This document shows, in pieces, positions 2,367 through 25,588 of a stretch of 64,000 bases of DNA. Numbering within the stretch: the stretch's first letter is position 1; every line of letters starts with the position of its first letter. The translations under genes and the position numbers were made by a program. Below the pieces are notes generated by a model. That model searched no databases. It worked only from the letters and a program-made list of their open reading frames with translations, and had not been told where the DNA came from. This stretch comes from a virus. Its lineage: Duplodnaviria; Caudoviricetes. The stretch covers positions 59,397 to 123,396 of IMG/VR virus record IMGVR_UViG_3300038530_004289; one strand, written 5' to 3'.

Positions 2367-2368
2367 AT

Positions 2369-3109: not shown

Positions 3110-3129
3110 AATTTCACATCTTCCATTCT

Positions 3130-3138
3130 GATACTTAA
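3130..3138 (-). promoter_or_regulatory. TTAAGTATC promoter box (class A)
   Basis: First T lies 29 nt upstream of ATG 3109. Confidence 0.8.
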
Positions 3139-3140
3139 GG

Positions 3141-3479
3141 CTATCGGAGTTTTCTCTTTCCGAAATAGTAGGATGACACTCCAACGATTAGGAACATTCC
3201 CATGATTTTTGGATTATCCAAAGCGAATCTTAGTGAGTTCTCGAAAAAGGCAGTAGCCCTTGAAACGATTTCTTCAGTTGCAGATTGTGGTTCTGCTTCA
3301 AACGCAGACGGCTCGATGGTTTCAAGGTCTGCATCAACGGTAGTTTCGGGTTCAGGTTCCGCAGGAGGCTCATAGAATGGTGAAGCCTCTGCTGAGATAC
3401 CCAATTGTTGTGGGGTCAAATCGCCAAATCCAACAGGAACAGGCATGGGGGCATCCATATCCATCTGTGAATACATCAA
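3141..3479 (-). CDS. Small acidic tail-anchored protein
   Basis: C-terminal IMGMFLIVGVSSYYF followed by basic GKRKLR; internal SAFEAE. Confidence 0.7.
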   Translation of the reverse strand: MMYSQMDMDAPMPVPVGFGDLTPQQLGISAEASPFYEPPAEPEPETTVDADLETIEPSAFEAEPQSATEEIVSRATAFFENSLRFALDNPKIMGMFLIVGVSSYYFGKRKLR

Positions 3480-3715
3480 TAATCAACTCCTGCTTCTTTC
3501 AGATATGCGAAAGCAGAAATGCCACCGCAAGCGATAACGATTGGGCCAAGAGTCATGCCAACAATGTTTGACTCGCCTCGAATGATGTATGGAAGTGAGT
3601 GTGCAGTTTCCAAAACTCCGATTCCCATCATGGCAAGTGCAATTGTGTAGCCGACTTTGTGAATCATTTTGGTTTCAGTTTCGTAGTATTTCTTTGGTAT
3701 CGCTAATGGGTTCAT
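3476..3715 (-). CDS. Small two-TM membrane protein
   Basis: Two hydrophobic segments; tightly packed between neighbours. Confidence 0.7.
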   Translation of the reverse strand: MNPLAIPKKYYETETKMIHKVGYTIALAMMGIGVLETAHSLPYIIRGESNIVGMTLGPIVIACGGISAFAYLKEAGVDY

Positions 3716-3716
3716 G

Positions 3717-5594: not shown

Positions 5595-5600
5595 TTCTCA

Positions 5601-6299
5601 TCACTCTCGCTTTCTCATTTCACTTACAGTAAAGGCTCCAAACACCAATGCAAGGAAGCCCAACTGAGCGTATTTGAATCCCTTTGGAACTTCTATTTTT
5701 CTTCGGTATGCGGCAAGTCCGATTGGGGATGGAATCATACCCATTCTTTCATAGTGTCTTTTCATGCCTCTTCGAGCATAATCTCTTTTTGAGTCTCGCT
5801 TCATGCCTGTAAATTCTGAAGCAAGTTCTTCAGCATCTAATTCGGTATGCTCCCCGATTTCATCAACCACCATATCTTCAAAGTCCTCTTCGTCAGCAGG
5901 GAAAAAGCCCTCATTATTTGCACCTTCAAACCGAGTTGAAAGTCCTCTTAAATATCGCTTCGCACCATCGTATTTGATTTCAGCCTCAAAATCTTCAGCA
6001 TCTAATCCTCTGTGGAATCTTCGATTTACTTCCAAAAGTTGTGTTGGAGTCCATGTAAAAGATAATTTTGTGTAAATTGAACCTGACTGAACCGAAGTAT
6101 TCAGAATAAGTCTGATTCCTTGTTGGAATAAGTTTGTGTAGTTGCCTCTGCTACTGTAAAAGGAATCTTCCATTTCGGCATCTTTCATACATGATTCCAT
6201 GTCTAAGAAATATCCAAAAATAGTTTGCCTTGTCTCGTATGGATTTATTTCACCACCACTAAAAAATTCTTCTTTCAGTTCTTTCACATAGACAGTCAT
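5601..6299 (-). CDS. Two-module AE-linker protein with tail anchor
   Basis: DAEDFEAE mid-protein; C-terminal LGFLALVFGAFTV followed by RKRE. Confidence 0.75.
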   Translation of the reverse strand: MTVYVKELKEEFFSGGEINPYETRQTIFGYFLDMESCMKDAEMEDSFYSSRGNYTNLFQQGIRLILNTSVQSGSIYTKLSFTWTPTQLLEVNRRFHRGLDAEDFEAEIKYDGAKRYLRGLSTRFEGANNEGFFPADEEDFEDMVVDEIGEHTELDAEELASEFTGMKRDSKRDYARRGMKRHYERMGMIPSPIGLAAYRRKIEVPKGFKYAQLGFLALVFGAFTVSEMRKRE

Positions 6300-8473
6300 T
6301 ATTCATCACCCTTCCCTTTCATTCTCATCGCAGTTAATCCCACAAGGGCAACCGCCACAACACCTCCACCAATCGCAAGGTTTTTAGGTGAGAAACGAGA
6401 TTCCGTTTTTTCAGGAGGTTGTTCTGCATTTTCCTGCGGCTTAGGAGATGGAATAAATGGATTCGATGTGGAATAAGTCAAGTCCTCCCCACACACTTTT
6501 TCGGTTGGGTGCAAATCACTTCGGCATTCTTGCCAAGAAGCACAATCACCGTCATCTTCACAGATTGGTAAGCATTGACCATCAACGCAAACTTTCCCAT
6601 CAGGGCAATCATCATCATTGGTGCAAGTTTCAGGAGCCTTGAATGTTTCAGATTTCTTCAACAACCTTTCAGTCAGTTTGTATCCAAACACCGCAGAGAA
6701 AAGAAGAACTGCTACGCCTCCGTAAGCCATTACTTCTTTATCACTTGGCACATATTCATCGCCAATGTATTCACCTGCAAATTCATAATCCATCATGACA
6801 TCATCATCATCGTCAAATTCTTCTTGCATGGGGTCTTGAATAACGCCTAAGCCTACAAGCGATGATTCGTTCCATCCATCATCCCAACCTGAAAAGAACT
6901 GCAAGTATCGGCTTGAATTGTTTTCAATTTCCTGCATCAGTTCATCAGGAGTAATGTCGTAAGTAATCATGTATTCAGTATCAACGCCTGAGTAGTAGTC
7001 TTCTTTGGTTGAATCAGGCATCCACATGGTTTTAGCCGCATTTCGACCTTCGGCAAACGGAGTGGATTCAGCACCGAGAGTTTCGGCAAAGTAAGACCCT
7101 GAACTTTCAGAGTATTCAACAGCATCCACATCAAGTAAATCTGTATCAATGATTTGAGGTGATTTCAGTTCACCATAAGCATAAATGTCTCTCGTAGTTC
7201 CATCCTCGAATTCAACTTTTGTGGATGAAGCCGCTTCAATTTCGCTCAATTGTCGAACATAATTTTCAGGGTTTGATTCGACTTCCGATTTGATGTCTTC
7301 TTTGATTTCTTCTTTGGCTCTTTCTAAGTTTTCCAGATTTTTTGAATAGGGAACAATGTCCTCATCATCTATTTCCACAACATAATCTTGCAGAATTGTT
7401 TCTCTGTCGTATCTTTTGGTTGTCTTATCTCTCTCATATTCAATTGAACCTTTCATTTCAGACTCAAACTCTTCAGCCCCCATCATCCTCAATAAAACTT
7501 GATTTCGGATTCCTATTGGAATTGAATTTACTCTTCTTTCATATTCTCTCATGGTGCTTTCAGCCATGTGCAAGCGATATTGAACTTCATCACTAATTGA
7601 TTTTAAGTCGTTGTATTGTGTGTTGTAAATGTTAAGATAATCATTAGTTTGAAAGTCAAATTCCCCCTCATTCAACCTTCTTTCCATTTCAGTTCTGTTT
7701 CTTAAGGCCATTTCTAATGGTGATGCAATCCGACTTTCTATTCTTTTCAAACCTTTGATTTGTCTTATACTATCTTGAAGCAAAGCATGATAATAGATGA
7801 ACTCTTCAATTTGTTCTTTAACATCCGTTTCAGAATCAAAAGTAATTTTTTGACCTCTTGAGTTGGTGTAGTCGTTCAGCATTACATCTTCCATACTACC
7901 TTGATATACTATGTTGTAAGGTCTGAAGAAAGGTTCATCCATAGGGTTCCCGAAATCATCATAGTGGTGATGTCGAAGTGTAACGAATACCTTGTCTCCT
8001 GCATTTGTGATGTTCACTACTTTCCCTTCATATTCATCAGCATTTTCAGCCCCAAACTCTTCAGCATCAAAAATCAAATATCCATCTTCAAAATCTCCGT
8101 TATCGTAGGCTTTTTTGAGGAATTTCAATGCCTCCATTTGTGTATTGAAGCCATAACTCATTGACCTATTGTATTGTTTCATAGGATTCCTAAGCATTCC
8201 ATAGTCAAAACTTGCTTCAGTAAATTTCCACCCTTCTTTCCAATTCCACCCTTCCATGTCATGCCTTTTTTCATAAGGAATGATTTGTGTTTCATACATA
8301 AGGACTACAAATGCTCCGTCTTTGAGAGTTTCATCGGTAATTCGGTAAGTATATTTGTCTAATTTTTTAACATCAAAACCTTCAATAATTTTTGTTGAAC
8401 CCTTCCTCATGCCCCGAAAAGCATCTTCGGCTTCAAATCCTTCAGCCCCCTTACATCCACAAGTATTGCACAT
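6299..8473 (-). CDS. Modular polyprotein-like protein with MCNTCGC leader, AE linkers, TM, Cys-rich repeat and C-terminal anchor
   Basis: MCNTCGCKGAEGFEAE, DAEEFGAE, GAEEFESE, FAETLGAE; TM VMAYGGVAVLLFSAVFGY; CTNDDDCPDGKVCVDGQC; ends IGGGVVAVALVGLTAMRMKGK. Confidence 0.8.
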   Translation of the reverse strand: MCNTCGCKGAEGFEAEDAFRGMRKGSTKIIEGFDVKKLDKYTYRITDETLKDGAFVVLMYETQIIPYEKRHDMEGWNWKEGWKFTEASFDYGMLRNPMKQYNRSMSYGFNTQMEALKFLKKAYDNGDFEDGYLIFDAEEFGAENADEYEGKVVNITNAGDKVFVTLRHHHYDDFGNPMDEPFFRPYNIVYQGSMEDVMLNDYTNSRGQKITFDSETDVKEQIEEFIYYHALLQDSIRQIKGLKRIESRIASPLEMALRNRTEMERRLNEGEFDFQTNDYLNIYNTQYNDLKSISDEVQYRLHMAESTMREYERRVNSIPIGIRNQVLLRMMGAEEFESEMKGSIEYERDKTTKRYDRETILQDYVVEIDDEDIVPYSKNLENLERAKEEIKEDIKSEVESNPENYVRQLSEIEAASSTKVEFEDGTTRDIYAYGELKSPQIIDTDLLDVDAVEYSESSGSYFAETLGAESTPFAEGRNAAKTMWMPDSTKEDYYSGVDTEYMITYDITPDELMQEIENNSSRYLQFFSGWDDGWNESSLVGLGVIQDPMQEEFDDDDDVMMDYEFAGEYIGDEYVPSDKEVMAYGGVAVLLFSAVFGYKLTERLLKKSETFKAPETCTNDDDCPDGKVCVDGQCLPICEDDGDCASWQECRSDLHPTEKVCGEDLTYSTSNPFIPSPKPQENAEQPPEKTESRFSPKNLAIGGGVVAVALVGLTAMRMKGKGDE

Positions 8474-10999: not shown

Positions 11000-12301
11000 T
11001 CATACCCTCCGACCAATAGACCTGAGAATTGTGTAAAGACCACCTGAAATCAAACTTACTGCGGCTATCATCTTGAATCCTGAATTCGATTTAGAAGTTG
11101 AGATTTTCCGTTGAGGAACAATTGATTCAAAGACCGATTCCTCTTCTGCAAACGAAGGCATATCATATTTCTTAGGAACATACTCAAATACATCGCCAAC
11201 TCTTGAATCTCCACCCATCGTTTCATGTGAGTAAGAGTCATCATTTTGGAATGCACCGTAATCATCCAATCCATCATCAAATCCACTAATTTCTCTTGTT
11301 AATCCATAATCTGAACTGCTGAATGGTTGTGTATCATATTGCACAACAGGAGCATCCATTGAAAATTTGCTTTTCACTTCAATGTTGGACCCTTTGTGTT
11401 CGGTTCTTCTTGGAGTGTCAATTTTTCCTACAACCACATATCCTTCATCTTTGAAGAATTCAGGAGAATACACAACTGCCTCACCCGGAGATGAATAAGT
11501 AATTCCCGAAAGAATCTTTTTGATGTTGTCTTTATCAGTTCCAAATGAAAGTTGCTCTTTGAGGGCATCAAGGTCTTTTGTGTTGATGATGTTGTGAACG
11601 ATATAAACCGATGCTTGGCTGAGTGCTTCTTTATTGACTGCGGCAGGTCTTTGGCTGATAAGTGCCACACCATATCCTGATGCCCTTCCCAACTTACACA
11701 ACCTTACGATAGAGGCGAAGGAGTTTGGTCTGCCGACTTGGGGAACGAAATCTTGAACTTCTTCAAAAAGGGTCATCAACCCTCTGCCACCCATATCGGT
11801 TTCAAGCAAAGCCTCGCAATAATCTGATATCATTTCTTGTTGGGTTTGAAGTGGAACTTGCGAAAGGTTGATAATCAATGACTTTCTCGAAGCCTTCAAT
11901 TTCTCAATCAATTTTCTCATATTGACTGATTCACCGACCTTTGGCTCGATTCTTTCCACACCCATCAGGTCATTCAAGTGGCCGTGAGCATCAAGAGCAT
12001 CAAAGCAAACAAACTGAAGACCAAGCCTTTCAAACTCTTCCATCAAAACTGCGGCAGTATAGGACTTACCTGAACCTCTTTTCCCACTTATGAACATAAC
12101 TTGATACAAGATTTTCAATGGAAAATTAATCCTTTTCCCTAATGAAACATTTTCATTCTTATCCACTTCAGGAACGGGGCTTGAGCCACCCGCATTAAGA
12201 ATCTCTTCCAATTCGGGACCGCCTGTTTGAACGCCCCAATCGTTCTCACCATCTGAGTCCATAACTTCAGTTTGGGGGTTTTGAATGTTAAATCTTCTCA
12301 T
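11000..12301 (-). CDS. HerA/FtsK-superfamily (DUF87-like) P-loop ATPase with C-terminal membrane anchor
   Basis: Walker A GKRGSGKS, Walker B LFEEVQDF, Arg finger LGRASG, ISQRP motif; ends MIAAVSLISGGLYTILRSIGRRV. Confidence 0.85.
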   Translation of the reverse strand: MRRFNIQNPQTEVMDSDGENDWGVQTGGPELEEILNAGGSSPVPEVDKNENVSLGKRINFPLKILYQVMFISGKRGSGKSYTAAVLMEEFERLGLQFVCFDALDAHGHLNDLMGVERIEPKVGESVNMRKLIEKLKASRKSLIINLSQVPLQTQQEMISDYCEALLETDMGGRGLMTLFEEVQDFVPQVGRPNSFASIVRLCKLGRASGYGVALISQRPAAVNKEALSQASVYIVHNIINTKDLDALKEQLSFGTDKDNIKKILSGITYSSPGEAVVYSPEFFKDEGYVVVGKIDTPRRTEHKGSNIEVKSKFSMDAPVVQYDTQPFSSSDYGLTREISGFDDGLDDYGAFQNDDSYSHETMGGDSRVGDVFEYVPKKYDMPSFAEEESVFESIVPQRKISTSKSNSGFKMIAAVSLISGGLYTILRSIGRRV

Positions 12302-15945: not shown

Positions 15946-17124
15946 TCAGACCTCAAAAGAATAAGTTGCTCCTGTTGCAGTTTTCTGCTTCCTCTTAACT
16001 TTCATGACTTTCAATTCAGGGAACCTATCAAAAATGGGCTTCTTCAAACAACCATCAACGATGTAGCCGTCTTCAAATAGTTCCACCTTATCCGAATATG
16101 GGAACTGAAGTTTCAACTTCATTTGCTCCCCATCTGATTCTGAAAGTTCGGTGGCAAATTCAGGGCTAAAGTCAAAATTATCTCCTGAGAATAGAATCTT
16201 GGCAAACTCACCCAACTTCTCAGCCTTTGGCTCAAACGGCAATCGGGATACACCAACCAATGAAATATCCTCACCACTCGTTAGGTTCCTATATTGAGCG
16301 ATGTAAGGTTGTTGTAAATCGTATTCCATCTTGAGCAACGCTACTGCCTTGTTGCGTTTGGCATCTTTCCATGTTTCTTCTCCGAAGTTTGGAATTAGGC
16401 CATTCACAATGATGTTTGAAACTTGGAATCCTTGAGCCTTCAAGAATTGAACAGTTCTTCTTGACTCTTGATATGCCGCCTCAGTTGGAATCGAAACAAG
16501 ATTGATGGAAACGAATTCTTGATTTCGGAGCAACTTCTTGATATTTTCAAGTTTGGATGTCATGTCTTCAACGATATCTGCAATCTTTGATGTATCGCTT
16601 GGCTTCAACAAGAACGATTTCATTCTTTCAATCTTAGCCTTCATTCTTAAGATTCTCAACAAAAATCCATTCATGGCTTCGGGAGTGGTGAGTGCCTTCA
16701 GAGTATGTCCTGTGGGTGCAGTATCAAAAACTACTACATCGTAATCTATTCCTTGAGTCAATGATTGAATTTCCTCAAGGGCAAAAACTTCATCCATGCC
16801 GGGGAAATTCGCCCAATCACTCAACATCTCAGAATCAAAAACAGGTATTGCTTTTGAAAATGAATTACTCATCGCATCTTGAAGTTCTGTGAAGAATGCC
16901 CTTGCCTGTTGTTGCGAATTCAAATTCTTCGCCCATAAATTTTCTTTGATAGGTGTAGGTGTGAATCCGACCTCAACTCCAAGAACATCTTGCGTGGAGT
17001 GTGCAGGGTCGCTTGAAACCAAAATAGTTCGATATCCTTGATTTGAATAATGTAAAGCGACTGCCGCAGAAGTTGTTGATTTTCCTACGCCACCCTTGCC
17101 TGTAAGCATTACAAGTTTAGCCAT
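15946..17124 (-). CDS. ArsA/Get3 (TRC40)-family ATPase, single ATPase domain, probable C-terminal HSP20-like extension
   Basis: GKGGVGKST, SDPAHS, PGMDE, DTAPTGHT; only one Cys in the protein; start 17124 is 29 nt from TTAAATACC. Confidence 0.9.
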   Translation of the reverse strand: MAKLVMLTGKGGVGKSTTSAAVALHYSNQGYRTILVSSDPAHSTQDVLGVEVGFTPTPIKENLWAKNLNSQQQARAFFTELQDAMSNSFSKAIPVFDSEMLSDWANFPGMDEVFALEEIQSLTQGIDYDVVVFDTAPTGHTLKALTTPEAMNGFLLRILRMKAKIERMKSFLLKPSDTSKIADIVEDMTSKLENIKKLLRNQEFVSINLVSIPTEAAYQESRRTVQFLKAQGFQVSNIIVNGLIPNFGEETWKDAKRNKAVALLKMEYDLQQPYIAQYRNLTSGEDISLVGVSRLPFEPKAEKLGEFAKILFSGDNFDFSPEFATELSESDGEQMKLKLQFPYSDKVELFEDGYIVDGCLKKPIFDRFPELKVMKVKRKQKTATGATYSFEV

Positions 17125-17173
17125 ACTGCCGATAACGCCAAACAGGTATTTAACGGTTTCCTTGAATTTCAAA

Positions 17174-18232
17174 TCAATCTCGAAGATTTCTGATTACTCT
17201 TGAAACCTTTCCAATGATACTTCGTTTTCTTTTTCGTATCTCTCTAAGTTGATTTGGGGAAAGTAGGGTTTCGCTCCCTCCGCTTGTCTCACCCATCGGT
17301 GGAGGAACGATGGAGGCTTCTTCCCAATTCAGACCTTTTGTTTTGGCTCCCCTGAAATCAGTTTCTATGAGGATTGTTTCACCATCAATAACTGCATTTT
17401 CCAAGTTCGCCCCACCGAGTTTTGCTCCCTTCAAATTCGCACCCGAAAGCAAAGCACCCGAAAGATTTGCACCCCTCAGGTCGCAGAAAGTCAATTTTGC
17501 ATCCCTCAAGTCGGCTCCTGCAAGATTAGCCCCTCTGAGGTCTGAGGACTCGAAAAAACAATTCCACAAATTTGATTTGCTCAAGTTTGCACCTCTCATA
17601 TCACAACTTCCAAATTCAGATTCACCTGTGCCTCTCAGGTTTGAAAAATTGGTGTTTTGAAGATTACAATCTGTGAAATATGAGAAACCAATTGCTCCCC
17701 TATTTTCGTTTGGAATATCCTTTCTGAAAATCTTCACTCGATTATTTTCCTGTCTTTGCATACTTGTGAAATGAGATGACGAATTGACACAATTAGAAAA
17801 ATCCACCCCTTCCAAATCGCATTCAGTAAATCCTGTATTGTAAAGAGTTGCTTCAAACAAACTTGCCCCCTGCAAATCTGACTTCCTAAATGTGGTTTCG
17901 TTCAAATTAGTATTTTCAAAGTTGGCATTTTGTAGGTTGCATTTCTTGAATTTCACTTTAACCAAATTACTTCCATTGAAGTTTGCATATTCCATGTTGC
18001 TTTTTTTGATTGTGTTGTTGTAAAAATTAGATTCCACCATGTCAGCCCCATAAAGGTTGCGATTACTCAACAAACTTATTCCGATGTTGTCTCTTGTTAA
18101 TTCAAACCCTGAAAGGTTGGCATACTGAATTTTTTTGAGTGCTGAGGGAGTTAGGTATGAATCCATCATCGTTTGAAGAATTTCATTCAAGTCAAGGGGA
18201 AAATAATTGTATGAGAAAATCGGTTTCTTCAT
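17174..18232 (-). CDS. Pentapeptide-repeat protein
   Basis: Many A(N/D)Lxx repeats (SDLRGANLAGADLRDAKL...). Confidence 0.9.
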   Translation of the reverse strand: MKKPIFSYNYFPLDLNEILQTMMDSYLTPSALKKIQYANLSGFELTRDNIGISLLSNRNLYGADMVESNFYNNTIKKSNMEYANFNGSNLVKVKFKKCNLQNANFENTNLNETTFRKSDLQGASLFEATLYNTGFTECDLEGVDFSNCVNSSSHFTSMQRQENNRVKIFRKDIPNENRGAIGFSYFTDCNLQNTNFSNLRGTGESEFGSCDMRGANLSKSNLWNCFFESSDLRGANLAGADLRDAKLTFCDLRGANLSGALLSGANLKGAKLGGANLENAVIDGETILIETDFRGAKTKGLNWEEASIVPPPMGETSGGSETLLSPNQLREIRKRKRSIIGKVSRVIRNLRD

Positions 18233-19337: not shown

Positions 19338-21038
19338 TCAAGACTCTAAATCATCAGGAATGCCATCTGCATCATCATCCGAATCAAGATAATCATCCAA
19401 TCCGTCATTGTCATGGTCGAATTGTCCTGTTAGTGGATTTCCATCATTGTTCTCAAACCAATCACTCAAACCATCATTGTCATCATCGGTATCTGTCTTG
19501 TCCCAAATTCCGTCATTGTCATGGTCGTATCGGTAGTTTCCAACCATGCCATCCAACTCTTCGGTATCAAGAATTCCGTCATTGTCATCATCGGTGTCAA
19601 TGCCATCATCGAGGCCGTCATTGTCATGGTCCCGCATCGCTGAAGTTCCATTCTCATGAACATCCTTTTCATTGTCAATGCCATCATTGTCAATATCCAA
19701 ATCAAACATATCAGAAATGCCGTCATTGTCATGGTCATAAATGTCGGTGTTTGGGTTTCCATCATTGACTTCTTCCTCATCATTGATTCCATCACCATCA
19801 TCATCGTCATCTTCTGCATCATCTATACCGTCATTGTCATGGTCAGTCGGAGATTCATCAATAACATCAGGGATGCCATCATTATCATCATCGGTATCTA
19901 ATTCATCAGGGATACCATCGCCATCGTTATCATTGTCGCCATTTTGTTGTTGATTATCCAACTGTTGCCCTTGTTGTTGGTCGTTTTGGGAGCCTTGCTG
20001 ACCTTGCTGACCATTCTGTGTTTGCCCCTGTTGTTGTTGATTTTGTCCGTTTTGATTTTGCCCGCCTTGATTCTGAGATTGTTGGTCGCCCTGCTGACCG
20101 CCCTGCTGACCGCCCTGTTGTTGCTGACCTTGCCCATTATCCTGTTGCTGACCTTGCTGACCTTGATTACCTTGTTGGCCTTGTTGTCCTGACTGTTGGC
20201 CTCCTTGTTGGCCTTGTTGTCCTGCCTGACCCTGCTGACCTTGCTGACCTTGCTGACCTTGATTACCTTGCCCCTGTCCTTGTCCTTGACCTTGCCCCTG
20301 TCCTTGTCCTTGACCTTGGCCTTGACCTTGACCTTGACCTTGCCCTTGTCCTTGACCTTGGCCCTGACCTTGGCCTTGACCTTGACCTTGCCCCTGTCCT
20401 TGTCCTTGACCCTGACCTTGCCCTTGTCCTTGACCTTGACCTTGACCTTGGCCTTGACCTTGACCTTGCCCCTGTCCTTGTCCTTGACCCTGACCCTGAC
20501 CTTGGCCCTCGCCTTGTCCGTTATCGTTGGATTCTCCACCACCCTCGGTTCCTCCATTTCCTGAACCTGCTTGTGATTCTTGGAAGTCGGGGTCGTAGGC
20601 ATCAGGAATACCATCACCATCGGAATCAGAGTATTCTCCGTCATTAGGGTCGTTTGGGAATGCGTCTGTGCCATCAGGCTTACCATCACCATCGGTATCT
20701 GCGTTATTGGGATTTGTCCCTTTTGCATACTCTTGAGAGTTGGTCAAGCCATCCCCATCAGGGTCGCCATTGGCATCTCCCCCATTTGTGGGATTCAAAC
20801 CATTACTCACTTCCCAACCATCAGGTAATCCATCTCCATCGGAATCAGGATTATTCATGTTGGTTCCTGCGTCTTGTTCTTCTTTGTTTGTCAGTCCATC
20901 GCCATCCCAATCTGCACCGCCATCTGACGGGTCGAGGGGGTCGCTTCCTTGAGCCATAACTAATCCCGAACTCATAATGAGTAGGATTGCCATCACCACA
21001 ATTGTTATCGTATTTTGAAATTTACTTTTTTGTTCCAT
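19338..21038 (-). CDS. Secreted or surface Ca-binding DxDxDG (TSP3-like) repeat protein with (GQ)n and Q-rich linker
   Basis: N-terminal signal/TM; NPDSDGDG repeats; five DHDNDG units; central GQ tract. Confidence 0.85.
   Translation of the reverse strand: MEQKSKFQNTITIVVMAILLIMSSGLVMAQGSDPLDPSDGGADWDGDGLTNKEEQDAGTNMNNPDSDGDGLPDGWEVSNGLNPTNGGDANGDPDGDGLTNSQEYAKGTNPNNADTDGDGKPDGTDAFPNDPNDGEYSDSDGDGIPDAYDPDFQESQAGSGNGGTEGGGESNDNGQGEGQGQGQGQGQGQGQGQGQGQGQGQGQGQGQGQGQGQGQGQGQGQGQGQGQGQGQGQGQGQGQGQGQGQGQGQGQGQGQGQGNQGQQGQQGQQGQAGQQGQQGGQQSGQQGQQGNQGQQGQQQDNGQGQQQQGGQQGGQQGDQQSQNQGGQNQNGQNQQQQGQTQNGQQGQQGSQNDQQQGQQLDNQQQNGDNDNDGDGIPDELDTDDDNDGIPDVIDESPTDHDNDGIDDAEDDDDDGDGINDEEEVNDGNPNTDIYDHDNDGISDMFDLDIDNDGIDNEKDVHENGTSAMRDHDNDGLDDGIDTDDDNDGILDTEELDGMVGNYRYDHDNDGIWDKTDTDDDNDGLSDWFENNDGNPLTGQFDHDNDGLDDYLDSDDDADGIPDDLES
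20268..20507 (-). repeat. In-frame tract of 40 Gly-Gln dipeptides, codon-diversified
   Basis: 240 nt of GGN-CAR hexamers. Confidence 0.95.
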
Positions 21039-21122: not shown

Positions 21123-21374
21123 TCAACAAAGATTATTTGAGTCATCAGATTCAGAAGGACAATCTTTTCCATTTTTGAATTTATCACAAGGTATGCAAAA
21201 GTCATCCCCATCATAAATTTCAGGGCTGAAAAATGTAGTTCCCTTTTGTTTGAATCCACAAAAAATACACTCATAATAGTCATCAAAGTGCTGATAACAC
21301 CACTTTTTCAATCCACATTCGGGACACTTCTTATCTGTGAGAGTGTATTTTCCACTTATGATAGACTCGGCCAT
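21123..21374 (-). CDS. Small Zn-ribbon protein
   Basis: CPEC, CIFC and CIPC pairs. Confidence 0.55.
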   Translation of the reverse strand: MAESIISGKYTLTDKKCPECGLKKWCYQHFDDYYECIFCGFKQKGTTFFSPEIYDGDDFCIPCDKFKNGKDCPSESDDSNNLC

Positions 21375-23140
21375 ACACCATCGTAAGGAGATGTTGTATT
21401 TGAACTTTCTGCTTGCATGATTGCCATAGGTCTTGGTTCTCCAACTTGTAAGTCCACAAGAGTAATTGATGGTGCATCTCTCAAGTTTCCATTGGTGTCG
21501 AGTGGGTATGGAACTCTTGCTTGTTCATTTTTGAAATAGCCCAATGACTTTTGACCAATCCTCATTTCACACCTTGCTTCTCTCATTTTCAGAGTAAGTG
21601 GCTCATAAGTTTTCCCATCCTTTGTGATTTCTCCTTGGTTGAAGAATGGGAATTGCTTGCCCCAAACCTCGCCCATCCAAAAGTCTCGGAGGTAAGAGGC
21701 AGGATATCCTTTTGCCATGTAAGAACAAACCGTTGGGAAAAATGGGTTGCACCAATTGTTATCGTATTCAGGCAACCTAACCAATCTTGCCAACTTCGAT
21801 GTTCCGATTGCTCTCAGCAATTTAGGTTCTCCCGTTTGAGGGTCGGAATAAGGAACTGCAAAGTTTGAGAAGAACAGTCTCGGCCAATACATGAAAACAG
21901 GCAACTCATCAAGACTCCAACCGAGTTCCTTCCAAATCAAGGAATAAGCAATTTCGGTTTCCCAAAGGTCGCAACCTCGAATCATGTGAGATACTTTCAA
22001 GTCATGGTCATCAACGGCTCCCTGAAATGCAAGGTAAGGCCAAACATAACCCTCAATGTTGGGGTGAGTTCTGAATGTGGCTCTCATAATCTTGATATCC
22101 CTGAATTTGCCGTATGAATCCATTGGTGTTTTTAACCAAACTGTCGGAACTGTGGTTTGCCCCACCCCTACGATGTGATTGTCCGTTGGTTTTTTTGTGG
22201 AACCATCTTCCTCGGTGTAATATCCGTTTTGAATCATTTCCTCAAACTGCCGAAGGTTTGTTTCGATACTCTTATTCCTGTCAGGAGATTCTATGCCTTC
22301 CTTTTCCATAGGTCGCTGATAAAATTCGGAAAAATCTCCTTGTGGAATAAATGAAACATAAGCCTTGCCTTCCTCAATGAGCCTTCTCGCCAATGTGATG
22401 TATCGGTTGCTATTTTCCGAAGAGATGTGAATTTTGTATTCACTTGGAGTTCTATCAGTCAAAAATTCAAACTCTTCTTTGATTTGACTGTAAAGTTCAG
22501 GAAGGGGTCGCTTTTGGTCAGGGTCAGTATCATCAAACCTCAAAATGTATTCACCATCGTATGCCTTCGCATAGATGTCATTAATGATAATTCCAAAAGA
22601 ATGTCCCATACTAAGCGGTCCATTTGGATTCGGTGCGAACCTAACCCTTACCCTATCCATTCGTGTAGGTGGCAATTCAGGCAATCCTCTGAGTTGAGCC
22701 GAAAATGCTTCTCTCTTCATGTAATCAAACAATTCGGGGGAGGATACTTCCATGAGCCTGAGTTCTGTGTTTTCAATTTCTCTTCGTAGGGCTAATTCTC
22801 CTTCAGAGTAATACAATTCCTCATAGTGTCGAAGCCTGTTTTGAATCATTTTGATGAGAACCTTTGTCTGTTTTCTATCGAAATTCAAGAAAGGAAGTTC
22901 GGGGCGCATGAGGGCTTGCCGAATTGTATTGACGGCCTTTTTACTTGGTTGCCCGTTTGTTTTCAATACTTCACTTGCACAGAAGTAATTCACCGCAAAG
23001 GGAACATCATACAGTTCACCTGACCAATCTTCTGCTAAATACTTGGAAAGGAAAGTTTTCTTGGTAAGGTAATCTAATCCTTTGAATGTCGCAAAAACTC
23101 CAACACCTAATGCCAAAATTTCCTTCCATCGAGAATCCAT
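21356..23140 (-). CDS. Glutamyl-tRNA synthetase-like catalytic domain with N-terminal membrane anchor and variant HIGH motif
   Basis: RVRFAPNPNGPLSMGH, LRFDDTDP, EGKAYV, VWPYLAFQGAVDDH, SHMIRGCD, GTSK; start 23140 is 29 nt from TTAAGTATC. Confidence 0.85.
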   Translation of the reverse strand: MDSRWKEILALGVGVFATFKGLDYLTKKTFLSKYLAEDWSGELYDVPFAVNYFCASEVLKTNGQPSKKAVNTIRQALMRPELPFLNFDRKQTKVLIKMIQNRLRHYEELYYSEGELALRREIENTELRLMEVSSPELFDYMKREAFSAQLRGLPELPPTRMDRVRVRFAPNPNGPLSMGHSFGIIINDIYAKAYDGEYILRFDDTDPDQKRPLPELYSQIKEEFEFLTDRTPSEYKIHISSENSNRYITLARRLIEEGKAYVSFIPQGDFSEFYQRPMEKEGIESPDRNKSIETNLRQFEEMIQNGYYTEEDGSTKKPTDNHIVGVGQTTVPTVWLKTPMDSYGKFRDIKIMRATFRTHPNIEGYVWPYLAFQGAVDDHDLKVSHMIRGCDLWETEIAYSLIWKELGWSLDELPVFMYWPRLFFSNFAVPYSDPQTGEPKLLRAIGTSKLARLVRLPEYDNNWCNPFFPTVCSYMAKGYPASYLRDFWMGEVWGKQFPFFNQGEITKDGKTYEPLTLKMREARCEMRIGQKSLGYFKNEQARVPYPLDTNGNLRDAPSITLVDLQVGEPRPMAIMQAESSNTTSPYDGVWPSLS

Positions 23141-23160
23141 AATGTTGAACTTCACTTTCT

Positions 23161-23169
23161 GATACTTAA
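23161..23169 (-). promoter_or_regulatory. TTAAGTATC promoter box (class A)
   Basis: 29 nt upstream of ATG 23140. Confidence 0.8.
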
Positions 23170-23433
23170 ACATGACGCTTAGAAAATGAGATAGCGCAAA
23201 CTAAATCCAACAATAAACATCAAAACAAATGCAAACAAAAAATTGTCTAAATCGTTGTCAAATAGAAAATCCTTCCGCATACGCTTCACCACTTATTGAA
23301 CTCGAAATCAGGTTGGGGCTTTTCTGTCAAAAAATAGACCAAAAACACAAGAAACAAAATTGTGATTCCACAACAGACCTCAAGCATACCTCGAAATCAG
23401 CGATTAGGTTGTTAAGTGTTTGGTTGGCAACCA

Positions 23434-23442
23434 TTAAGTATC
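23434..23442 (+). promoter_or_regulatory. TTAAGTATC promoter box (class A), plus strand
   Basis: 30 nt upstream of in-frame ATG 23464; orientation follows the gene. Confidence 0.8.
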
Positions 23443-23463
23443 AAAACCTCGATATCTTGTGTT

Positions 23464-24270
23464 ATGGTGGTTCGGAGATACCCTGCCCCCCCTGAATGGA
23501 TGGAGGGAAGTAAGTTGGAAGAGTTTCTTGACTTGTGGAGCGAAAATCCCGAAGAATGGAATTATCGGAGATATAATTCGGTTCAAGACGATAGGTGTTT
23601 TTTCAATCCTGACCATCAAGTATTCCTTTCACTTTTCTATCACAAGGCGTTAGACCAACGAAGGCCACCCGAAATAAGGAAACGAATAGCCTCTATCTTG
23701 CTTATTGGATTGATGAATAACTCTGACACATCATTCAGTAGTGGAAATTCATTCGATTTGATGAGTTGGAAGGGTTTATCAGAAACAGATAAGGAAAAGA
23801 TGAAGTTGTCGGGGGAGGGGGAGATGGGGCTATTGCGCTTCAGGTTGAGTCAAGATGAAAGATTGAAAATAAAACAGACCTTTGAATACAGAAACGGACT
23901 CAGAAATTCAGGAATTCCAATGATAGGTGTTGGTGGTGGAGGACTTATCAGAAACATACCATTTAGTGCAGGAGAGTGGGTGATGGGATGTATTTCCACC
24001 ATGTCTGCAATTAGTGATTTGTATGAGTTGCCTAATGGGTGGAATGAAGAAGTTGAAAATAAAGGCTTTTTGAGTGATGGGCAAATTTCGTTTATGGGTA
24101 GGCTGACTTTAGATGGAATGATTGAGACTTTACCGAATGTTTTGGAGGGTTGGCAAGCCCCATACAGAAGTGCATTGGTTGATACCTTCTATTGGTTTGA
24201 CCCCTTCGCAGAAGATAAAATCACACGCAACTTCATTTACGCTTACAACTATTACAGGGGGTCGAAATAG
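23464..24270 (+). CDS. Hypothetical protein with C-terminal IYAYNY tag; distant paralogue of the next gene
   Basis: Start MVVRRY; shares IG(L/M)MN(N/S)S and GWxxP with 24271..25110. Confidence 0.75.
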   Translation: MVVRRYPAPPEWMEGSKLEEFLDLWSENPEEWNYRRYNSVQDDRCFFNPDHQVFLSLFYHKALDQRRPPEIRKRIASILLIGLMNNSDTSFSSGNSFDLMSWKGLSETDKEKMKLSGEGEMGLLRFRLSQDERLKIKQTFEYRNGLRNSGIPMIGVGGGGLIRNIPFSAGEWVMGCISTMSAISDLYELPNGWNEEVENKGFLSDGQISFMGRLTLDGMIETLPNVLEGWQAPYRSALVDTFYWFDPFAEDKITRNFIYAYNYYRGSK

Positions 24271-25110
24271 ATGGTAAATCTTGATGAAAGGGTGAATAGA
24301 ATCTTCTTGGAAGAGTATGAAAAAGCATACAATGAAGTTATCCGTAAGTGGCCTTCAGACTATTTAGATTACTTGGTTGAATGGATATCACTCACTAAGG
24401 AATTAGACCAAGCAATCCGAGAGAGGGGTGCTTTTTTGATGCCTCGGCAAGAATACAGTCGAAACATAGGTGGAACCGAATTATATGAGAAAAATTTCTT
24501 GCCTCCACTTACAATTGCGATATACAACTTGATATTGAAAGAACTTGAAAATTCAGAAAATCTCTCCACTTCATCAAGGATGACGACAATAGACAAGAAA
24601 ACATTAGCGGGAAGAATTGTAATCGGGATGATGAATAGTAGCCTTAAATCGGTATCAAGCAACATACTGAGCCTGAGTCCTTTGAGGTCTGCACAGAAAA
24701 CAAAAACCAAGTTGCGGTATTTCATATCAAACTATCTCAAAGGATGTCTGCAAACGGCTTACGACAGAACAAATCGCAGGTTGCGTAGGTTTCCAACCCC
24801 TACAAAGATGATAAATAGAGAGGATTACCCATCGTTTAGGTATCCATTCACTCCTGAGGATGGGGGAGATATTGACTCAATTCCAATGAGGCAAGTCAAT
24901 GAATTTTTCCGATATCTTGGGGCGGGAACTGAGGGAGTTTCGTTTGAAGGAACGAGTTTCGATGGTTGGTCTGTTCCTTGGAAGGCGAATTTAATCACAA
25001 TTCCATCTGCATTGGCGGGTCTTGACCCCAATGACCCTGATTTGTTGAGCGTCTTAATTTCTGCAAGTCCAAGAAAAATTTACTCATACAATTTCCATAA
25101 GGGATTGTAG
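24271..25110 (+). CDS. Hypothetical protein with C-terminal IYSYNF tag
   Basis: 279 aa, abuts the previous stop; ends KIYSYNFHKGL. Confidence 0.75.
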   Translation: MVNLDERVNRIFLEEYEKAYNEVIRKWPSDYLDYLVEWISLTKELDQAIRERGAFLMPRQEYSRNIGGTELYEKNFLPPLTIAIYNLILKELENSENLSTSSRMTTIDKKTLAGRIVIGMMNSSLKSVSSNILSLSPLRSAQKTKTKLRYFISNYLKGCLQTAYDRTNRRLRRFPTPTKMINREDYPSFRYPFTPEDGGDIDSIPMRQVNEFFRYLGAGTEGVSFEGTSFDGWSVPWKANLITIPSALAGLDPNDPDLLSVLISASPRKIYSYNFHKGL

Positions 25111-25112
25111 GT

Positions 25113-25187
25113 TGGCGAGCATACAGGGAATCGAACCCCGATTTTCGGCTTAGGAGGCCAATGTGATATCCATTACACTATACGCTC
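25113..25187 (-). tRNA. tRNA-Arg(CCT), CCA encoded
   Basis: Acceptor GAGCGTA/TATGCTC-G-CCA; anticodon arm TTGGC-CTCCTAA-GCCGA; T loop TTCGATT; A20. Confidence 0.92.
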
Positions 25188-25202
25188 AGATTTGGAATAA
25201 AA

Positions 25203-25277
25203 TGGTGGACAAGGCGGGAATTGAACCCGCAGTCTTTCCGCCCGCAACGGAATGTTTTTCCATTAAACTACTCGCCC
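25203..25277 (-). tRNA. tRNA-Arg(GCG), CCA encoded
   Basis: Acceptor GGGCGAG/CTTGTCC-A-CCA; anticodon arm TTCCG-TTGCGGG-CGGAA; T loop TTCAATT; TTAAATAG box 31 nt upstream. Confidence 0.88.
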
Positions 25278-25300
25278 ATGATAATCCATATAGGCCACCT

Positions 25301-25495
25301 CTATTTAACCTTTTGCCATAGAGGTCTGCCTTTGACAACTTGAAACCAACATCGAGGACAAAGCCATCGGCCATCGGGTGTGGTTGAATTCTTTCTTTCT
25401 TCTATATAGCCCCACCTGCCACAGTCTTCACAAGCAATTCTGCCATACCTATCCACCTTCAATCGTTTGGGTATTTCATATTCCATGATATTCAC
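25301..25495 (-). CDS. Small Zn-finger protein between tRNAs
   Basis: CEDC...CPRC; GGTGA SD. Confidence 0.55.
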   Translation of the reverse strand: MNIMEYEIPKRLKVDRYGRIACEDCGRWGYIEERKNSTTPDGRWLCPRCWFQVVKGRPLWQKVK

Positions 25496-25509
25496 CTTTG
25501 AAAATTAAA

Positions 25510-25581
25510 CGGGCGTGAGAGGAATCGAACCCCTATCCTCGGCTTAGAAGGCCAAGATGCTATCCATTACACCACACACCC
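25510..25581 (-). tRNA. tRNA-Arg(TCT), CCA not encoded
   Basis: Acceptor GGGTGTG/CACGCCC-G; anticodon arm TTGGC-CTTCTAA-GCCGA; T loop TTCGATT; A20. Confidence 0.92.
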
Positions 25582-25588
25582 ATTGAAT

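What the first reader, a model, noticed from the sequence alone, without database searches (positions are those of the whole stretch)
21356..23140. Membrane-anchored, truncated GluRS-like protein with SMGH replacing HIGH, under the class A promoter
Seen: an N-terminal TM (ILALGVGVFATF) and an unrelated ~120-aa segment, then an archaeal-type GluRS catalytic core. The first His of HIGH is Ser, the usual Zn-binding Cys region is absent, and only about 150 aa follow the GTSK (KMSKS-equivalent) motif, with no recognisable anticodon-binding domain. Junction motifs YLAE, FSAQ and QAE resemble linker half-sites. Known: catalytic-only GluRS paralogues such as GluQ/YadB have non-translational roles. Inference: a repurposed aaRS, possibly virion-delivered, acting in tRNA modification, glutamylation or tRNA sequestration.
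Basis: partly seen in the sequence, partly recalled or inferred. Interest (0 to 1): 0.72.

Follow-up and report, generated by a model that had tools for sequence, protein, structure and literature searches.

The report
Viral GluRS paralogue lacking anticodon domain
A large virus-like element of marine Group II archaea carries a conserved, heavily remodelled copy of its host's glutamyl-tRNA synthetase that keeps the glutamate/ATP pocket but has lost the anticodon-reading domains, so it probably attaches glutamate to an RNA in a non-standard way.

Summary
The ORF is real (21356..23140, minus strand; a TTAAGTATC box starts 29 nt upstream of the ATG). It is a class Ic GluRS-type enzyme body (Pfam E 2e-32; Z 30-32 to solved GluRS/GlnRS). 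S/T-x-G-H replaces HIGH in all 63 Poseidoniales-type GluRS examined, and other archaeal orders have T-L-G-S. The Zn site is also lost in some Poseidoniales-type GluRS. The "unrelated" N-terminal segment is the homologous YqeY-type domain. Four points are unusual. Both anticodon-binding beta-barrels are absent from the protein and from the whole 123-kb record. A conserved N-terminal leader of about 45 aa with a short hydrophobic helix has been added. The family sits on a very long stem branch and is then tightly conserved. A sister family in a related element shares the same derived changes. The Glu-recognition triad is invariant. At two sites beside the active site both families carry the GluQRS-type residue, not the GluRS-type. 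Both families are essentially absent from host genomes (0 and 1 of 401) and undescribed. Best reading (about 45%): an active, anticodon-blind glutamyl ligase acting on an RNA acceptor. Function is untested. New variant of a known kind; interest about 0.6.

The parts
23161..23169 (-). TTAAGTATC promoter-like (TATA-like) box, starting 29 nt upstream of the ATG at 23140
   Evidence: Sequence read. 11 copies in the window against 0.51 expected, 10 of them on the coding strand.
21356..23140 (-). CDS of the GluRS-like protein (594 aa from Met12 of the 605-aa maximal ORF; residue numbers in this report follow the 605-aa ORF, P0001)
   Evidence: homologues start at Met12; Pfam PF00749.
23042..23140 (-). 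Added N-terminal leader (residues 12-44). It contains the short Gly-rich hydrophobic helix 19-30 (23084-23119).
   Evidence: Conserved in position in 13 family-1 and 6 family-2 sequences and absent from cellular GluRS. Kyte-Doolittle 1.25-1.74. AF2 pLDDT below 50.
23024..23041 (-). Junction Y-L-A-E-D-W (residues 45-50). A47, E48 and W50 are invariant. W50 aligns with the Trp at the very N-terminus of cellular enzymes (M-A-W...).
   Evidence: family 2 has S-E-[ST]-W. It resembles the [FL]xAE motif enriched in ORFs 114-8473. Its role is unknown.
22694..23005 (-). YqeY-type helical N-domain plus linker (residues 57-160), homologous to the N-domain of archaeal GluRS
   Evidence: hhalign 100% over 57-505; HMMER profile reaches 3aii residue 45; domain named in PMC2978374; AF2 pLDDT 78-95.
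21866..22693 (-). Rossmann-fold catalytic domain with CP insertion (residues 161-436). It includes S-M-G-H (22601-22612), F193 (22595-22597), the Glu triad R178 (22640-22642), D389 (22007-22009) and R399 (21977-21979), and the degenerate Zn-site region (22277-22360).
   Evidence: triad defined in PMC2978374.
21809..21865 (-). Insertion specific to the viral families before the KMSKS loop (residues 437-455, ...DPQTG...)
   Evidence: Absent from all 55 cellular sequences and present in both viral families.
21659..21808 (-). KMSKS-equivalent loop (G-T-S-K at 21794-21805) and first SC-fold helix (residues 456-505). Cellular W-D-D-P-R and R-R-R-G patches are replaced by W-C-N-P-x and M-A-K-G.
21464..21658 (-). 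New C-terminal beta-rich module (residues 506-570) with invariant V-P-Y-P-L...G-x-x-R. It replaces the rest of the SC-fold and both anticodon-binding barrels.
   Evidence: 12 invariant columns. pLDDT about 90 in the full model but 49 when folded alone. hhalign probability 0.2% against the cellular C-terminus. No Pfam barrel hit.
21359..21463 (-). Variable, disordered C-terminal tail (residues 571-605)
   Evidence: pLDDT about 30; no invariant column.
21123..21374 (-). 83-aa Cys-rich (CPxC...CxxC, zinc-ribbon-like) ORF overlapping the GluRS-like stop by 19 nt. A possible partner; binding not tested.
   Evidence: Syntenic in L003, L004, L005, L007 and L009. Not present next to family 2.

Best explanation
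The gene encodes a neofunctionalised paralogue of Poseidoniales (Marine Group II) glutamyl-tRNA synthetase, carried by a large PolD-encoding virus-like element. SHOWN: it keeps the YqeY-type N-domain, the Rossmann/CP catalytic body, the Glu-recognition triad (R178, D389, R399) and the host-type S-x-G-H and x-T-S motifs. It has lost both anticodon-binding beta-barrels and the CP zinc site. It has gained a leader of about 45 aa with a short hydrophobic helix, an insertion before the KMSKS loop and a new C-terminal beta-module of about 65 aa. It belongs to a two-family clade found in related elements and essentially absent from host genomes. INFERRED: it still forms Glu-AMP and transfers glutamate to an RNA acceptor, most likely a tRNA, without reading the anticodon. 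In that case it works like GluQRS or a minimal GluRS and unlike the housekeeping enzyme. The leader would keep it at a membrane. The acceptor and the benefit to the element are unknown.
For: Homology and fold: PF00749 E 2e-32; VIA Z 32.2 (320 residues, rmsd 2.5) to E. coli GlnRS and Z 29.9 to archaeal GluRS 3aii; hhalign 100% over residues 57-505. Active site kept: R178, A180-G185, R212, D214-D217, K221, D389, H396, R399 and G400 are invariant in 15 viral and 55 cellular sequences, and the triad is also kept in family 2 at 29% identity. The triad's role is from PMC2978374. Barrels gone: no PF03950 or PF20974 hit in 13 members at E<=1; none in six frames of the 123-kb record; C-terminus unrelated to the cellular one. 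Neofunctionalisation pattern: monophyletic family, stem 3.11 changes per column, short internal branches, sister to or nested with Poseidoniales GluRS. Exhaustive search gives one 50% cluster at 1022 bits, then a drop to 182 bits. Shared derived changes with family 2. GluQRS-like states: the position two residues after HIGH is R in E. coli GltX, Thermococcus and all 55 cellular archaeal sequences, but I in E. coli GluQ, F in family 1 and L in family 2. The RG-x-D position is K/E/Q in GluRS, A in GluQ and family 2, and C/A/S in family 1. RNA acceptor: the YqeY-type domain is retained with good confidence, and a YqeY domain acts as a cis tRNA-affinity enhancer in D. radiodurans GlnRS (PMC1865053). 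Mobile cargo: 0 of 401 (family 1) and 1 of 401 (family 2) Poseidoniales genomes; no family member among the 80 best loci kept from the scan of 185,579 species genomes, all at 35% identity or less; conserved synteny in related elements.
Against: The conserved C-terminal module could be a new anticodon- or RNA-binding device, which would make this a working GluRS. Loss of cellular-conserved basic residues is only a trend (12 of 23 against 30 of 91, Fisher p = 0.097). The two GluQRS-like positions are a resemblance, and their mechanistic role rests on my inference. Archaea are not known to make queuosine, the GluQRS acceptor (general knowledge), so the acceptor would have to differ. The hydrophobic helix is short and borderline for a membrane span and modelled at low confidence. 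ESM-Atlas features and the VIA alignment ends hint weakly at a barrel remnant.
Confidence: 0.45

Rival explanations
1. It is a working auxiliary GluRS: it charges tRNA-Glu (and tRNA-Gln, as archaeal non-discriminating GluRS does) for translation during infection. The new C-terminal module, or acceptor/elbow contacts through the YqeY domain, would substitute for the barrels. It could serve, for example, to keep translation going if the host enzyme is shut off.
For: Intact Glu/ATP pocket and host-type signature motifs. YqeY-type domain retained. A conserved C-terminal module packs on the body. The gene lies beside a cluster of viral tRNA genes in most relatives. Membrane-anchored yet fully active aaRS, including GluRS, exist in cyanobacteria (PMC4893482).
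Against: Both barrels that carry the anticodon contacts in GlnRS and archaeal GluRS (PMC2978374) are gone. Cellular-invariant R193, K401, R409 and the WDDPR and RRRG patches are replaced. NCBIfam GluRS equivalog score is 190 against a cut-off of 516. The very long stem branch argues for a change of constraint. The element carries no tRNA-Glu or tRNA-Gln.
Confidence: 0.17
2. It is a glutamate-adenylating ligase whose acceptor is not RNA. It would glutamylate a protein, lipid head-group or small molecule at the membrane, as other aaRS paralogues have become amino-acid ligases for non-tRNA acceptors.
For: Active site kept while surfaces that are basic in cellular enzymes are changed. There is an N-terminal hydrophobic leader. 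Family 2 is flanked by small membrane-protein genes. The element encodes a Get3/ArsA-type ATPase. The GluQRS-type residues at 193 and 401 would fit tRNA-independent activation.
Against: Retention of the YqeY-type domain in both families, whose only documented role is tRNA affinity. The R-F-A-P-N-P-N-G strand that lines the acceptor-end pocket is unchanged. No candidate acceptor gene is conserved next to both families.
Confidence: 0.2
3. It is a non-catalytic binder or decoy that sequesters host tRNA-Glu/Gln or a GluRS partner such as GatDE or glutamyl-tRNA reductase.
For: Anticodon domain lost. Several invariant basic residues lost.
Against: Every residue of the Glu triad and the nucleotide-binding strands is invariant across two families that share only 29% identity. 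Pseudoenzymes normally lose such residues.
Confidence: 0.06
4. On the leader only (compatible with any catalytic reading): the leader is a cleavable targeting peptide removed after E48 at the conserved [AS]-E junction, rather than a permanent membrane anchor. This would deliver the enzyme into a particle.
For: A47, E48 and W50 are invariant, and family 2 has S-E-x-W at the same point. The junction falls exactly where the ancestral protein's N-terminus (M-A-W) aligns. A similar [FL]xAE motif is 8- to 12-fold enriched in four other large ORFs of the element. Glu-specific maturation proteases that cut leaders of packaged proteins are known in large phages (general knowledge).
Against: One motif copy in this ORF is within chance (70 of 200 shuffles). 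No protease or capsid gene was recognised. The conserved residues could simply cap the YqeY domain.
Confidence: 0.12

Closest known systems
Archaeal non-discriminating GluRS (M. thermautotrophicus, PDB 3AII; Poseidoniales gltX)
   Same: Same descent and same body: YqeY-type N-domain, Rossmann fold, CP domain, Glu triad, and the S/T-x-G-H and x-S-T-S motif variants of Poseidoniales.
   Different: No proximal or distal beta-barrel and most of the SC-fold replaced. No Zn site. Added leader. Insertions at about 320-345 and 437-455. Invariant R193, K401, R409, WDDPR and RRRG replaced. Only 27-35% identity. Score far below the equivalog cut-off.
GluQRS / YadB (tRNA glutamyl-Q34 synthetase, E. coli gluQ, PDB 1NZJ)
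   Same: A GluRS-derived enzyme without an anticodon-binding domain.
   Different: Independent origin (archaeal-type, from Poseidoniales GluRS). About 600 aa against 308 aa. Keeps a YqeY domain and has a new C-module and leader. NCBIfam GluQRS models score 27-51 bits against cut-offs of 250-453. The queuosine acceptor is not expected in archaea (general knowledge).
CAAD-containing membrane-anchored aaRS of cyanobacteria (ValRS, GluRS and others)
   Same: Class I monomeric aaRS tethered to a membrane by an added hydrophobic element (PMC4893482).
   Different: [quoted passage not shown] Here there is a single short N-terminal helix on a truncated, virus-borne paralogue. No member matched any Pfam family other than PF00749 at E below 0.002.
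GlnRS/GluRS genes of giant eukaryotic viruses (Hokovirus, Edafosvirus, Yasminevirus) and GlnRS-like genes of phages
   Same: Virus-encoded class Ic synthetase bodies; best BFVD matches E 1e-17 to 1e-13; phage tblastn hits at 24-27% identity.
   Different: These are separate acquisitions, mostly full-length enzymes. None shares the leader, the insertions or the C-module.
YqeY domain of D. radiodurans GlnRS
   Same: An appended YqeY-type module on a Glx-tRNA synthetase, shown to raise tRNA affinity in cis (PMC1865053).
   Different: C-terminal there, N-terminal and ancestral here. Its function in archaeal GluRS and in this protein is untested.

Membership tests
Canonical archaeal glutamate--tRNA ligase (NCBIfam PRK04156 / TIGR00463) | Class Ic Rossmann catalytic domain with the Glu-recognition triad (Arg on beta1, Asp, Arg of H-x-x-R-G) | tested here: met
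   PF00749 E 2e-32. R178, D389 and R399 invariant. Triad defined in PMC2978374.
Canonical archaeal glutamate--tRNA ligase (NCBIfam PRK04156 / TIGR00463) | Whole-protein score above the curated equivalog cut-off | tested here: not met
   189.7 bits against 516 (PRK04156); 166.8 against 401.75 (TIGR00463).
Canonical archaeal glutamate--tRNA ligase (NCBIfam PRK04156 / TIGR00463) | Two C-terminal anticodon-binding beta-barrels (PF03950 and PF20974) | tested here: not met
   No hit in 13 members at E<=1. hhalign probability 0.2%. None in the whole record. Cellular neighbours have both. Weak contrary hints only.
Canonical archaeal glutamate--tRNA ligase (NCBIfam PRK04156 / TIGR00463) | HIGH and KMSKS signature motifs | tested here: inconclusive
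   S-M-G-H and G-T-S-K are degenerate, but so are the motifs of the cellular Poseidoniales enzymes ([ST]-x-G-H, F-S-T-S). The motif state therefore does not discriminate.
Canonical archaeal glutamate--tRNA ligase (NCBIfam PRK04156 / TIGR00463) | Charges tRNA-Glu (and tRNA-Gln) at the 3' end | not testable with these tools
   Needs aminoacylation assays.
GluQRS (tRNA glutamyl-Q34 synthetase) | GluRS catalytic core with no anticodon-binding domain | tested here: met
   Barrels absent. The protein does carry extra N- and C-terminal modules that GluQRS lacks.
GluQRS (tRNA glutamyl-Q34 synthetase) | Score above the NCBIfam GluQRS cut-offs; descent from bacterial-type GluRS | tested here: not met
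   27-51 bits against cut-offs of 250-453. The tree places it with Poseidoniales archaeal-type GluRS.
GluQRS (tRNA glutamyl-Q34 synthetase) | Glutamylates queuosine-34 of tRNA-Asp; activates Glu without tRNA | not testable with these tools
   Only a resemblance at two positions flanking the active site.
CAAD-type membrane-anchored aaRS | CAAD/CURT1-homologous domain with two transmembrane helices | tested here: not met
   One short hydrophobic stretch only. Apart from PF00749, no Pfam family was matched by more than one of the 13 members, and none is a CAAD/CURT1 family.
New clade: barrel-less, leader-bearing GluRS paralogues of Poseidoniales-associated elements (family 1 = P0001-P0015; family 2 = P0123, P0271-P0275) | Shared derived characters: N-terminal hydrophobic leader with [AS]-E-x-W junction; R193 to F/L; K401 to small residue; F-Q-S-A to F/Y-Q-G-x; Y-W-G-R to Y-W-P-R; insertion of about 17 aa before the KMSKS loop; no barrels | tested here: met
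   Monophyly support 100.

The most novel reading that the evidence does not exclude
This is the first aaRS-derived effector of an archaeal virus: an enzyme that activates glutamate without needing tRNA, as GluQRS does, and glutamylates a non-canonical acceptor to reprogram or protect translation during infection. The acceptor could be a nucleoside or end of a host tRNA other than tRNA-Glu, or a viral or host membrane-associated molecule. Its leader would target it to a membrane or, after cleavage at the conserved A-E junction, into the particle.
Probability: 0.25. Interest if true: 0.8.

Novelty: new variant of a known kind. Interest (0 to 1): 0.6.

Why it matters
aaRS paralogues that have lost the anticodon domain (GluQRS, PoxA/EpmA, HisZ, amino-acid:carrier-protein ligases) are textbook cases of how translation enzymes are recruited to new chemistry. 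All well-studied examples are cellular. Here the same evolutionary move appears in a mobile element of one of the most abundant archaeal groups of the surface ocean. It has a clear donor lineage, a burst of change followed by strict conservation, and a sister family that shows the innovation is old and maintained. If the enzyme is active, it offers a tractable handle on how uncultured Poseidoniales viruses manipulate host translation or membranes. It would also be a natural experiment on what a GluRS core can do without anticodon reading. The work also corrects an easy misreading: degenerate HIGH motifs and missing Zn sites are normal in many archaeal GluRS and are not evidence of repurposing.

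Tried and rejected
1. SMGH and Zn-site loss as marks of repurposing: rejected, because cellular GluRS share them.
2. N-terminal segment unrelated to GluRS: rejected.
3. C-terminal module as a recognisable remnant of a barrel: MAFFT aligned P557 and R565 to a cellular P-x-H-P...G-x-R motif, ESM-Atlas gave PF03950 clusters at 0.86-0.88, and VIA alignments end inside the proximal barrel. However, hhalign gives 0.2% and Pfam gives nothing, so this is left unresolved and is not claimed.
4. Folding the C-module alone gave pLDDT 49, so no fold search was run on it.
5. Split GluRS with barrels encoded elsewhere: none in the 123-kb record, though the record is about 61% complete.
6. Adjacent tRNA-Arg genes as special substrates: they resemble host tRNA-Arg, not tRNA-Glu/Gln, and three relatives have no tRNA within the fetched flank.
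8. Record as a provirus with a host flank: the element's DP2 is only 43-50% identical to host DP2 and GC is uniform.
9. Magrovirus membership: published magroviruses use PolB and have 65-100 kb genomes, with no PolD catalytic subunit or GluRS mentioned.
12. Family 2 in IMG/VR: not found.
13. A first, larger tree did not finish in time and was replaced by smaller LG+G4 trees.
14. Enrichment of basic-residue loss: not significant (p = 0.097).
Full report
THE OBJECT. The window is the last 64 kb of a 123,396-bp IMG/VR record, labelled 'provirus', with a CheckV completeness estimate of 61%. ORF 21356..23173 on the minus strand encodes 605 aa (P0001). Thirteen aligned homologues begin at its Met12. 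A TTAAGTATC box lies at 23161-23169, starting 29 nt upstream of that ATG at 23140. The box occurs 11 times in the window against 0.51 expected, ten of them on the coding strand. Residue numbers below follow the 605-aa ORF.

WHAT KIND OF PROTEIN. Pfam finds only the class Ic (Glu/Gln) synthetase catalytic domain, at residues 175-421 with E 2e-32. NCBIfam's archaeal GluRS equivalogs score 190 and 167 bits against cut-offs of 516 and 402, and the GluQRS models score 27-51 against 250-453. The best solved relative is the archaeal non-discriminating GluRS 3AII. An AlphaFold2 model built on 70 sequences has mean pLDDT 82.9 and pTM 0.82. It is confident from about residue 45 to 570 and poor for 1-43 and 572-605. 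It superposes on E. coli GlnRS at Z 32.2 (320 residues, rmsd 2.5 A) and on 3AII at Z 29.9 (Foldseek).

WHICH ODDITIES ARE ORDINARY. The nearest cellular proteins are full-length GluRS of Poseidoniales (Marine Group II) MAGs at 27-35% identity. They carry both barrel domains.
- HIGH motif: all 63 Poseidoniales-type enzymes extracted have [ST]-[LFI]-G-H at the HIGH position. Methanosarcinales, Archaeoglobales, Methanophagales and Alkanophagales have T-L/I/V-G-S. In a 70-sequence alignment the first position is T in 31, S in 17 and H in only 7 of the 55 cellular sequences.
- KMSKS loop: cellular enzymes read F-S-T-S where the viral family has I-G-T-S-K.
- Zn site: the CP-domain motif CxC...CP[CH]R is missing in the viral family. 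It is also missing in the Poseidoniales-type enzymes L088, L089 and L098, which end the motif with the same S-P-D-R.
- N-terminal segment: profile-profile comparison gives 100% probability from residue 57 to 505 against residues 9-400 of a cellular GluRS. A family profile reaches residue 45 of 3AII. The 3AII paper names that region a YqeY domain, residues 1-85 (PMC2978374).
SMGH, the missing Zn site and the 'unrelated 120 aa' are therefore not evidence of repurposing.

WHAT IS UNUSUAL.
(i) Both anticodon-binding beta-barrels are gone. No member of the family hits PF03950 or PF20974 even at E<=1. The last 106 residues show no profile similarity to the cellular C-terminus (probability 0.2%). Neither barrel family is found in any frame of the 123-kb record. 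In their place is a beta-rich module of about 65 residues with 12 invariant positions, including V-P-Y-P-L. It is confident only in the context of the whole protein: pLDDT about 90 in the full model against 49 when folded alone.
(ii) A leader of about 45 residues precedes the point where cellular enzymes start (M-A-W aligns with A-E-D-W). It contains a Gly-rich hydrophobic stretch of 12-15 residues. This is the most hydrophobic segment of every member but is borderline for a membrane span, with Kyte-Doolittle averages of 1.25-1.74.
(iii) Residues invariant or nearly so in 55 cellular enzymes are replaced in all viral sequences: R193 to F/L, D382 to N/A, K401 to C/A/S, R409 to A, W-D-D-P-R to W-C-N/H-P-x, and R-R-R-G to M-A-K-G. 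There is also an insertion of 17-19 residues before the KMSKS loop.
(iv) The Glu-recognition triad (R178, D389, R399; roles from PMC2978374), the R-F-A-P-N-P-N-G strand and R-x-D-D-T-D-P are invariant.

EVOLUTION. The big-database search found 14 clusters at 90% identity (579-618 aa, 54-98% identical), followed by a gap down to cellular GluRS. The exhaustive search of 1.84 billion representatives found one full-length 50% cluster at 1022 bits plus two fragments, then 182 bits. In an LG+G4 tree the family is monophyletic (support 100), sits on a stem of 3.11 changes per column, has short internal branches, and is sister to the Poseidoniales GluRS clade (support 93).

The 182-bit hit, P0123, belongs to a second small family (six clusters, 590-652 aa). 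Its nearest relative is family 1, ahead of any cellular GluRS. It shares these features with family 1:
- the leader, with an S-E-x-W junction
- a hydrophobic residue at position 193 and a small residue at 401
- F/Y-Q-G and Y-W-P-R
- the pre-KMSKS insertion
- the absence of barrels
- the intact triad
Its C-terminus is different. The two families form one clade (support 100, stem 1.30) nested with Poseidoniales-type enzymes (support 100). The shared indels argue that this grouping is not merely long-branch attraction. These are quick searches with SH-aLRT support only, so I claim no particular donor subgroup.

GENOMIC HOME. Family 1 lies in a syntenic block in nine fetched marine contigs. The order is a 672-aa protein, a 131-aa protein, a 78-aa wHTH protein, tRNA genes, the GluRS-like gene, an 83-aa Cys-rich ORF, then a TSP3-repeat protein. 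Family 2 was found in 1 of 401 sampled Poseidoniales genomes and family 1 in none. No family-1 member appeared among the 80 best loci kept from the scan of 185,579 species genomes, all of which were at 35% identity or less. The one family-2 contig (49 kb, GC 32%) carries homologues of the window's TSP3 protein (80%), wHTH (60%), 118-aa protein (80%), 672-aa protein (53%) and ribonucleotide reductase (72%), plus a tRNA-Arg, yet its GluRS-like gene is only 29% identical. Both families are therefore cargo of one group of related elements.

The element encodes its own PolD large subunit, 43-50% identical to that of four Poseidoniales genomes, and its GC is uniform. The 'provirus' label is thus doubtful. 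The element also differs from published magroviruses, which use PolB and have 65-100 kb genomes. No capsid gene was recognised, so 'virus-like element' is the safe term. Public sources call the proteins 'hypothetical protein'. Papers on Poseidoniales viruses do not mention them, and no paper combines 'archaeal viruses' with 'glutamyl-tRNA synthetase'.

MECHANISM. Shown: the glutamate and nucleotide pocket is under strict conservation across two families that have otherwise diverged to 29% identity. This argues for an active Glu-AMP-forming enzyme and against a decoy. Shown: the modules that read the anticodon are absent. Shown with real sequences: the residue two positions after HIGH is Arg in E. 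coli GltX, Thermococcus, Poseidoniales and all 55 cellular archaeal sequences, but Ile in E. coli GluQRS, Phe in family 1 and Leu in family 2. The RG-x-D residue is K/E/Q in GluRS, Ala in GluQRS and family 2 (V-R-G-A-D-L-I in both), and C/A/S in family 1.

Inferred: like GluQRS, the enzyme has changed how it engages its acceptor. Because the YqeY-type domain is retained, and such a domain is a cis tRNA-affinity enhancer in D. radiodurans GlnRS (PMC1865053), an RNA, most likely a tRNA, remains the probable acceptor. The leader suggests tethering at a membrane. Catalytically normal aaRS anchored in membranes are known (PMC4893482). I put about 45% on this reading, 17% on a still-ordinary auxiliary GluRS, 20% on a non-RNA acceptor and 6% on a non-catalytic binder. 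The remainder is unassigned. A47, E48 and W50 are invariant, and a similar [FL]xAE motif is strongly enriched in four other ORFs: 8, 8, 3 and 5 copies against 0.3-0.7 expected. However, a single copy here is within chance.

WHAT DID NOT HELP. The three adjacent tRNA-Arg genes (CCT, GCG, TCT) have acceptor stems and D-loops like host tRNA-Arg and unlike host tRNA-Glu/Gln. The only other tRNA in the record is tRNA-Ala. Loss of conserved basic residues is only a trend (12 of 23 against 30 of 91, p = 0.097). The 83-aa zinc-ribbon-like ORF overlaps the stop codon by 19 nt and is syntenic in family 1 but is absent beside family 2. Known viral structures give only giant-virus GlnRS/GluRS.

VERDICT. 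The interpretation reaches the right general conclusion partly for the wrong reasons. The protein is an undescribed, element-specific, barrel-less GluRS paralogue. It is a new variant of the known theme of aaRS cores recruited to new tasks, and its activity and acceptor still have to be determined at the bench.

Noticed in passing
G000:C1:24759-28223 (+), outside the window (L084:4759-8223): The element encodes a full PolD large (DP2) subunit (three Pfam DP2 domains, E down to 4e-124; 1154 aa). It is only 43-50% identical to the DP2 of four Poseidoniales genomes, which are 1315-1375 aa. A virus-like element with its own family-D polymerase differs from published magroviruses, which use PolB.
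   Followed up: partly
window, 11 sites: 92, 3130, 10982, 14506, 23161, 23434(+), 34981, 45485, 51610, 52288, 54188: TTAAGTATC recurs 11 times against 0.51 expected, almost always on the coding strand just upstream of ORF starts. It is probably an archaeal TATA-like promoter element of leaderless genes.
   Followed up: partly
window 114-8473 (ORFs 114-2465, 3717-5594, 5601-6299, 6299-8473): The motif [FLY]-x-A-E, often doubled as in F-G-A-E-E-F-x-A-E, occurs 8, 8, 3 and 5 times against 0.3-0.7 expected, with 0-2 of 200 shuffles reaching the observed count. These proteins have no Pfam or PHROG hits. The motifs may be linker or processing sites.
   Followed up: partly
window 23416-25110 (+): Two plus-strand ORFs (284 and 279 aa, no Pfam hit), with their own TTAAGTATC box at 23434-23442, lie between the tRNA cluster and the GluRS-like gene. 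They have no counterpart in any of the nine related loci, so this looks like a lineage-specific insertion.
   Followed up: partly
window 19338-21038 (-): A 566-aa protein with bacterial TSP3 (thrombospondin type 3) repeats and a long (GQ)n/Q-rich low-complexity core. Its ends are 72-82% identical across all related elements, including the family-2 contig, while the core varies.
   Followed up: no
window 25113-25582 (-); L001, L003, L004, L007, L008, L010, L171: Viral tRNA clusters (Arg-TCT, -GCG and -CCT, plus Lys-TTT or Met-CAT in relatives), mostly with the CCA end encoded. The acceptor stems of the viral tRNA-Arg resemble those of a Poseidonia genome, which supports the host assignment.
   Followed up: partly
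window 15946-17172 (-) and 17174-18232 (-): An ArsA/Get3-type ATPase (Pfam E 1e-62) lies next to a pentapeptide-repeat protein. Both are conserved in relative L010.
   Followed up: no
G000:C1:21085-24381 (+) (L084:1085-4381): A 1098-aa protein carries DUF5872 and DUF5754 (E 9e-13 and 4e-18) immediately upstream of the PolD gene. Function unknown.
   Followed up: no
window 11000-12301 (-): A 433-aa P-loop ATPase with weak HerA/FtsK-type (DUF87) and PHROG 'terminase large subunit' (phrog_2666, E 1e-18) matches. This is the only packaging-like gene recognised. No capsid, portal or protease gene was identified in the 123 kb.
   Followed up: partly
G217:C25 (L171:1-20000): A 49-kb contig binned in a Poseidoniales MAG is a lower-GC (32%) relative of this element. 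It carries the family-2 GluRS-like gene flanked by small multi-pass membrane-protein ORFs.
   Followed up: partly
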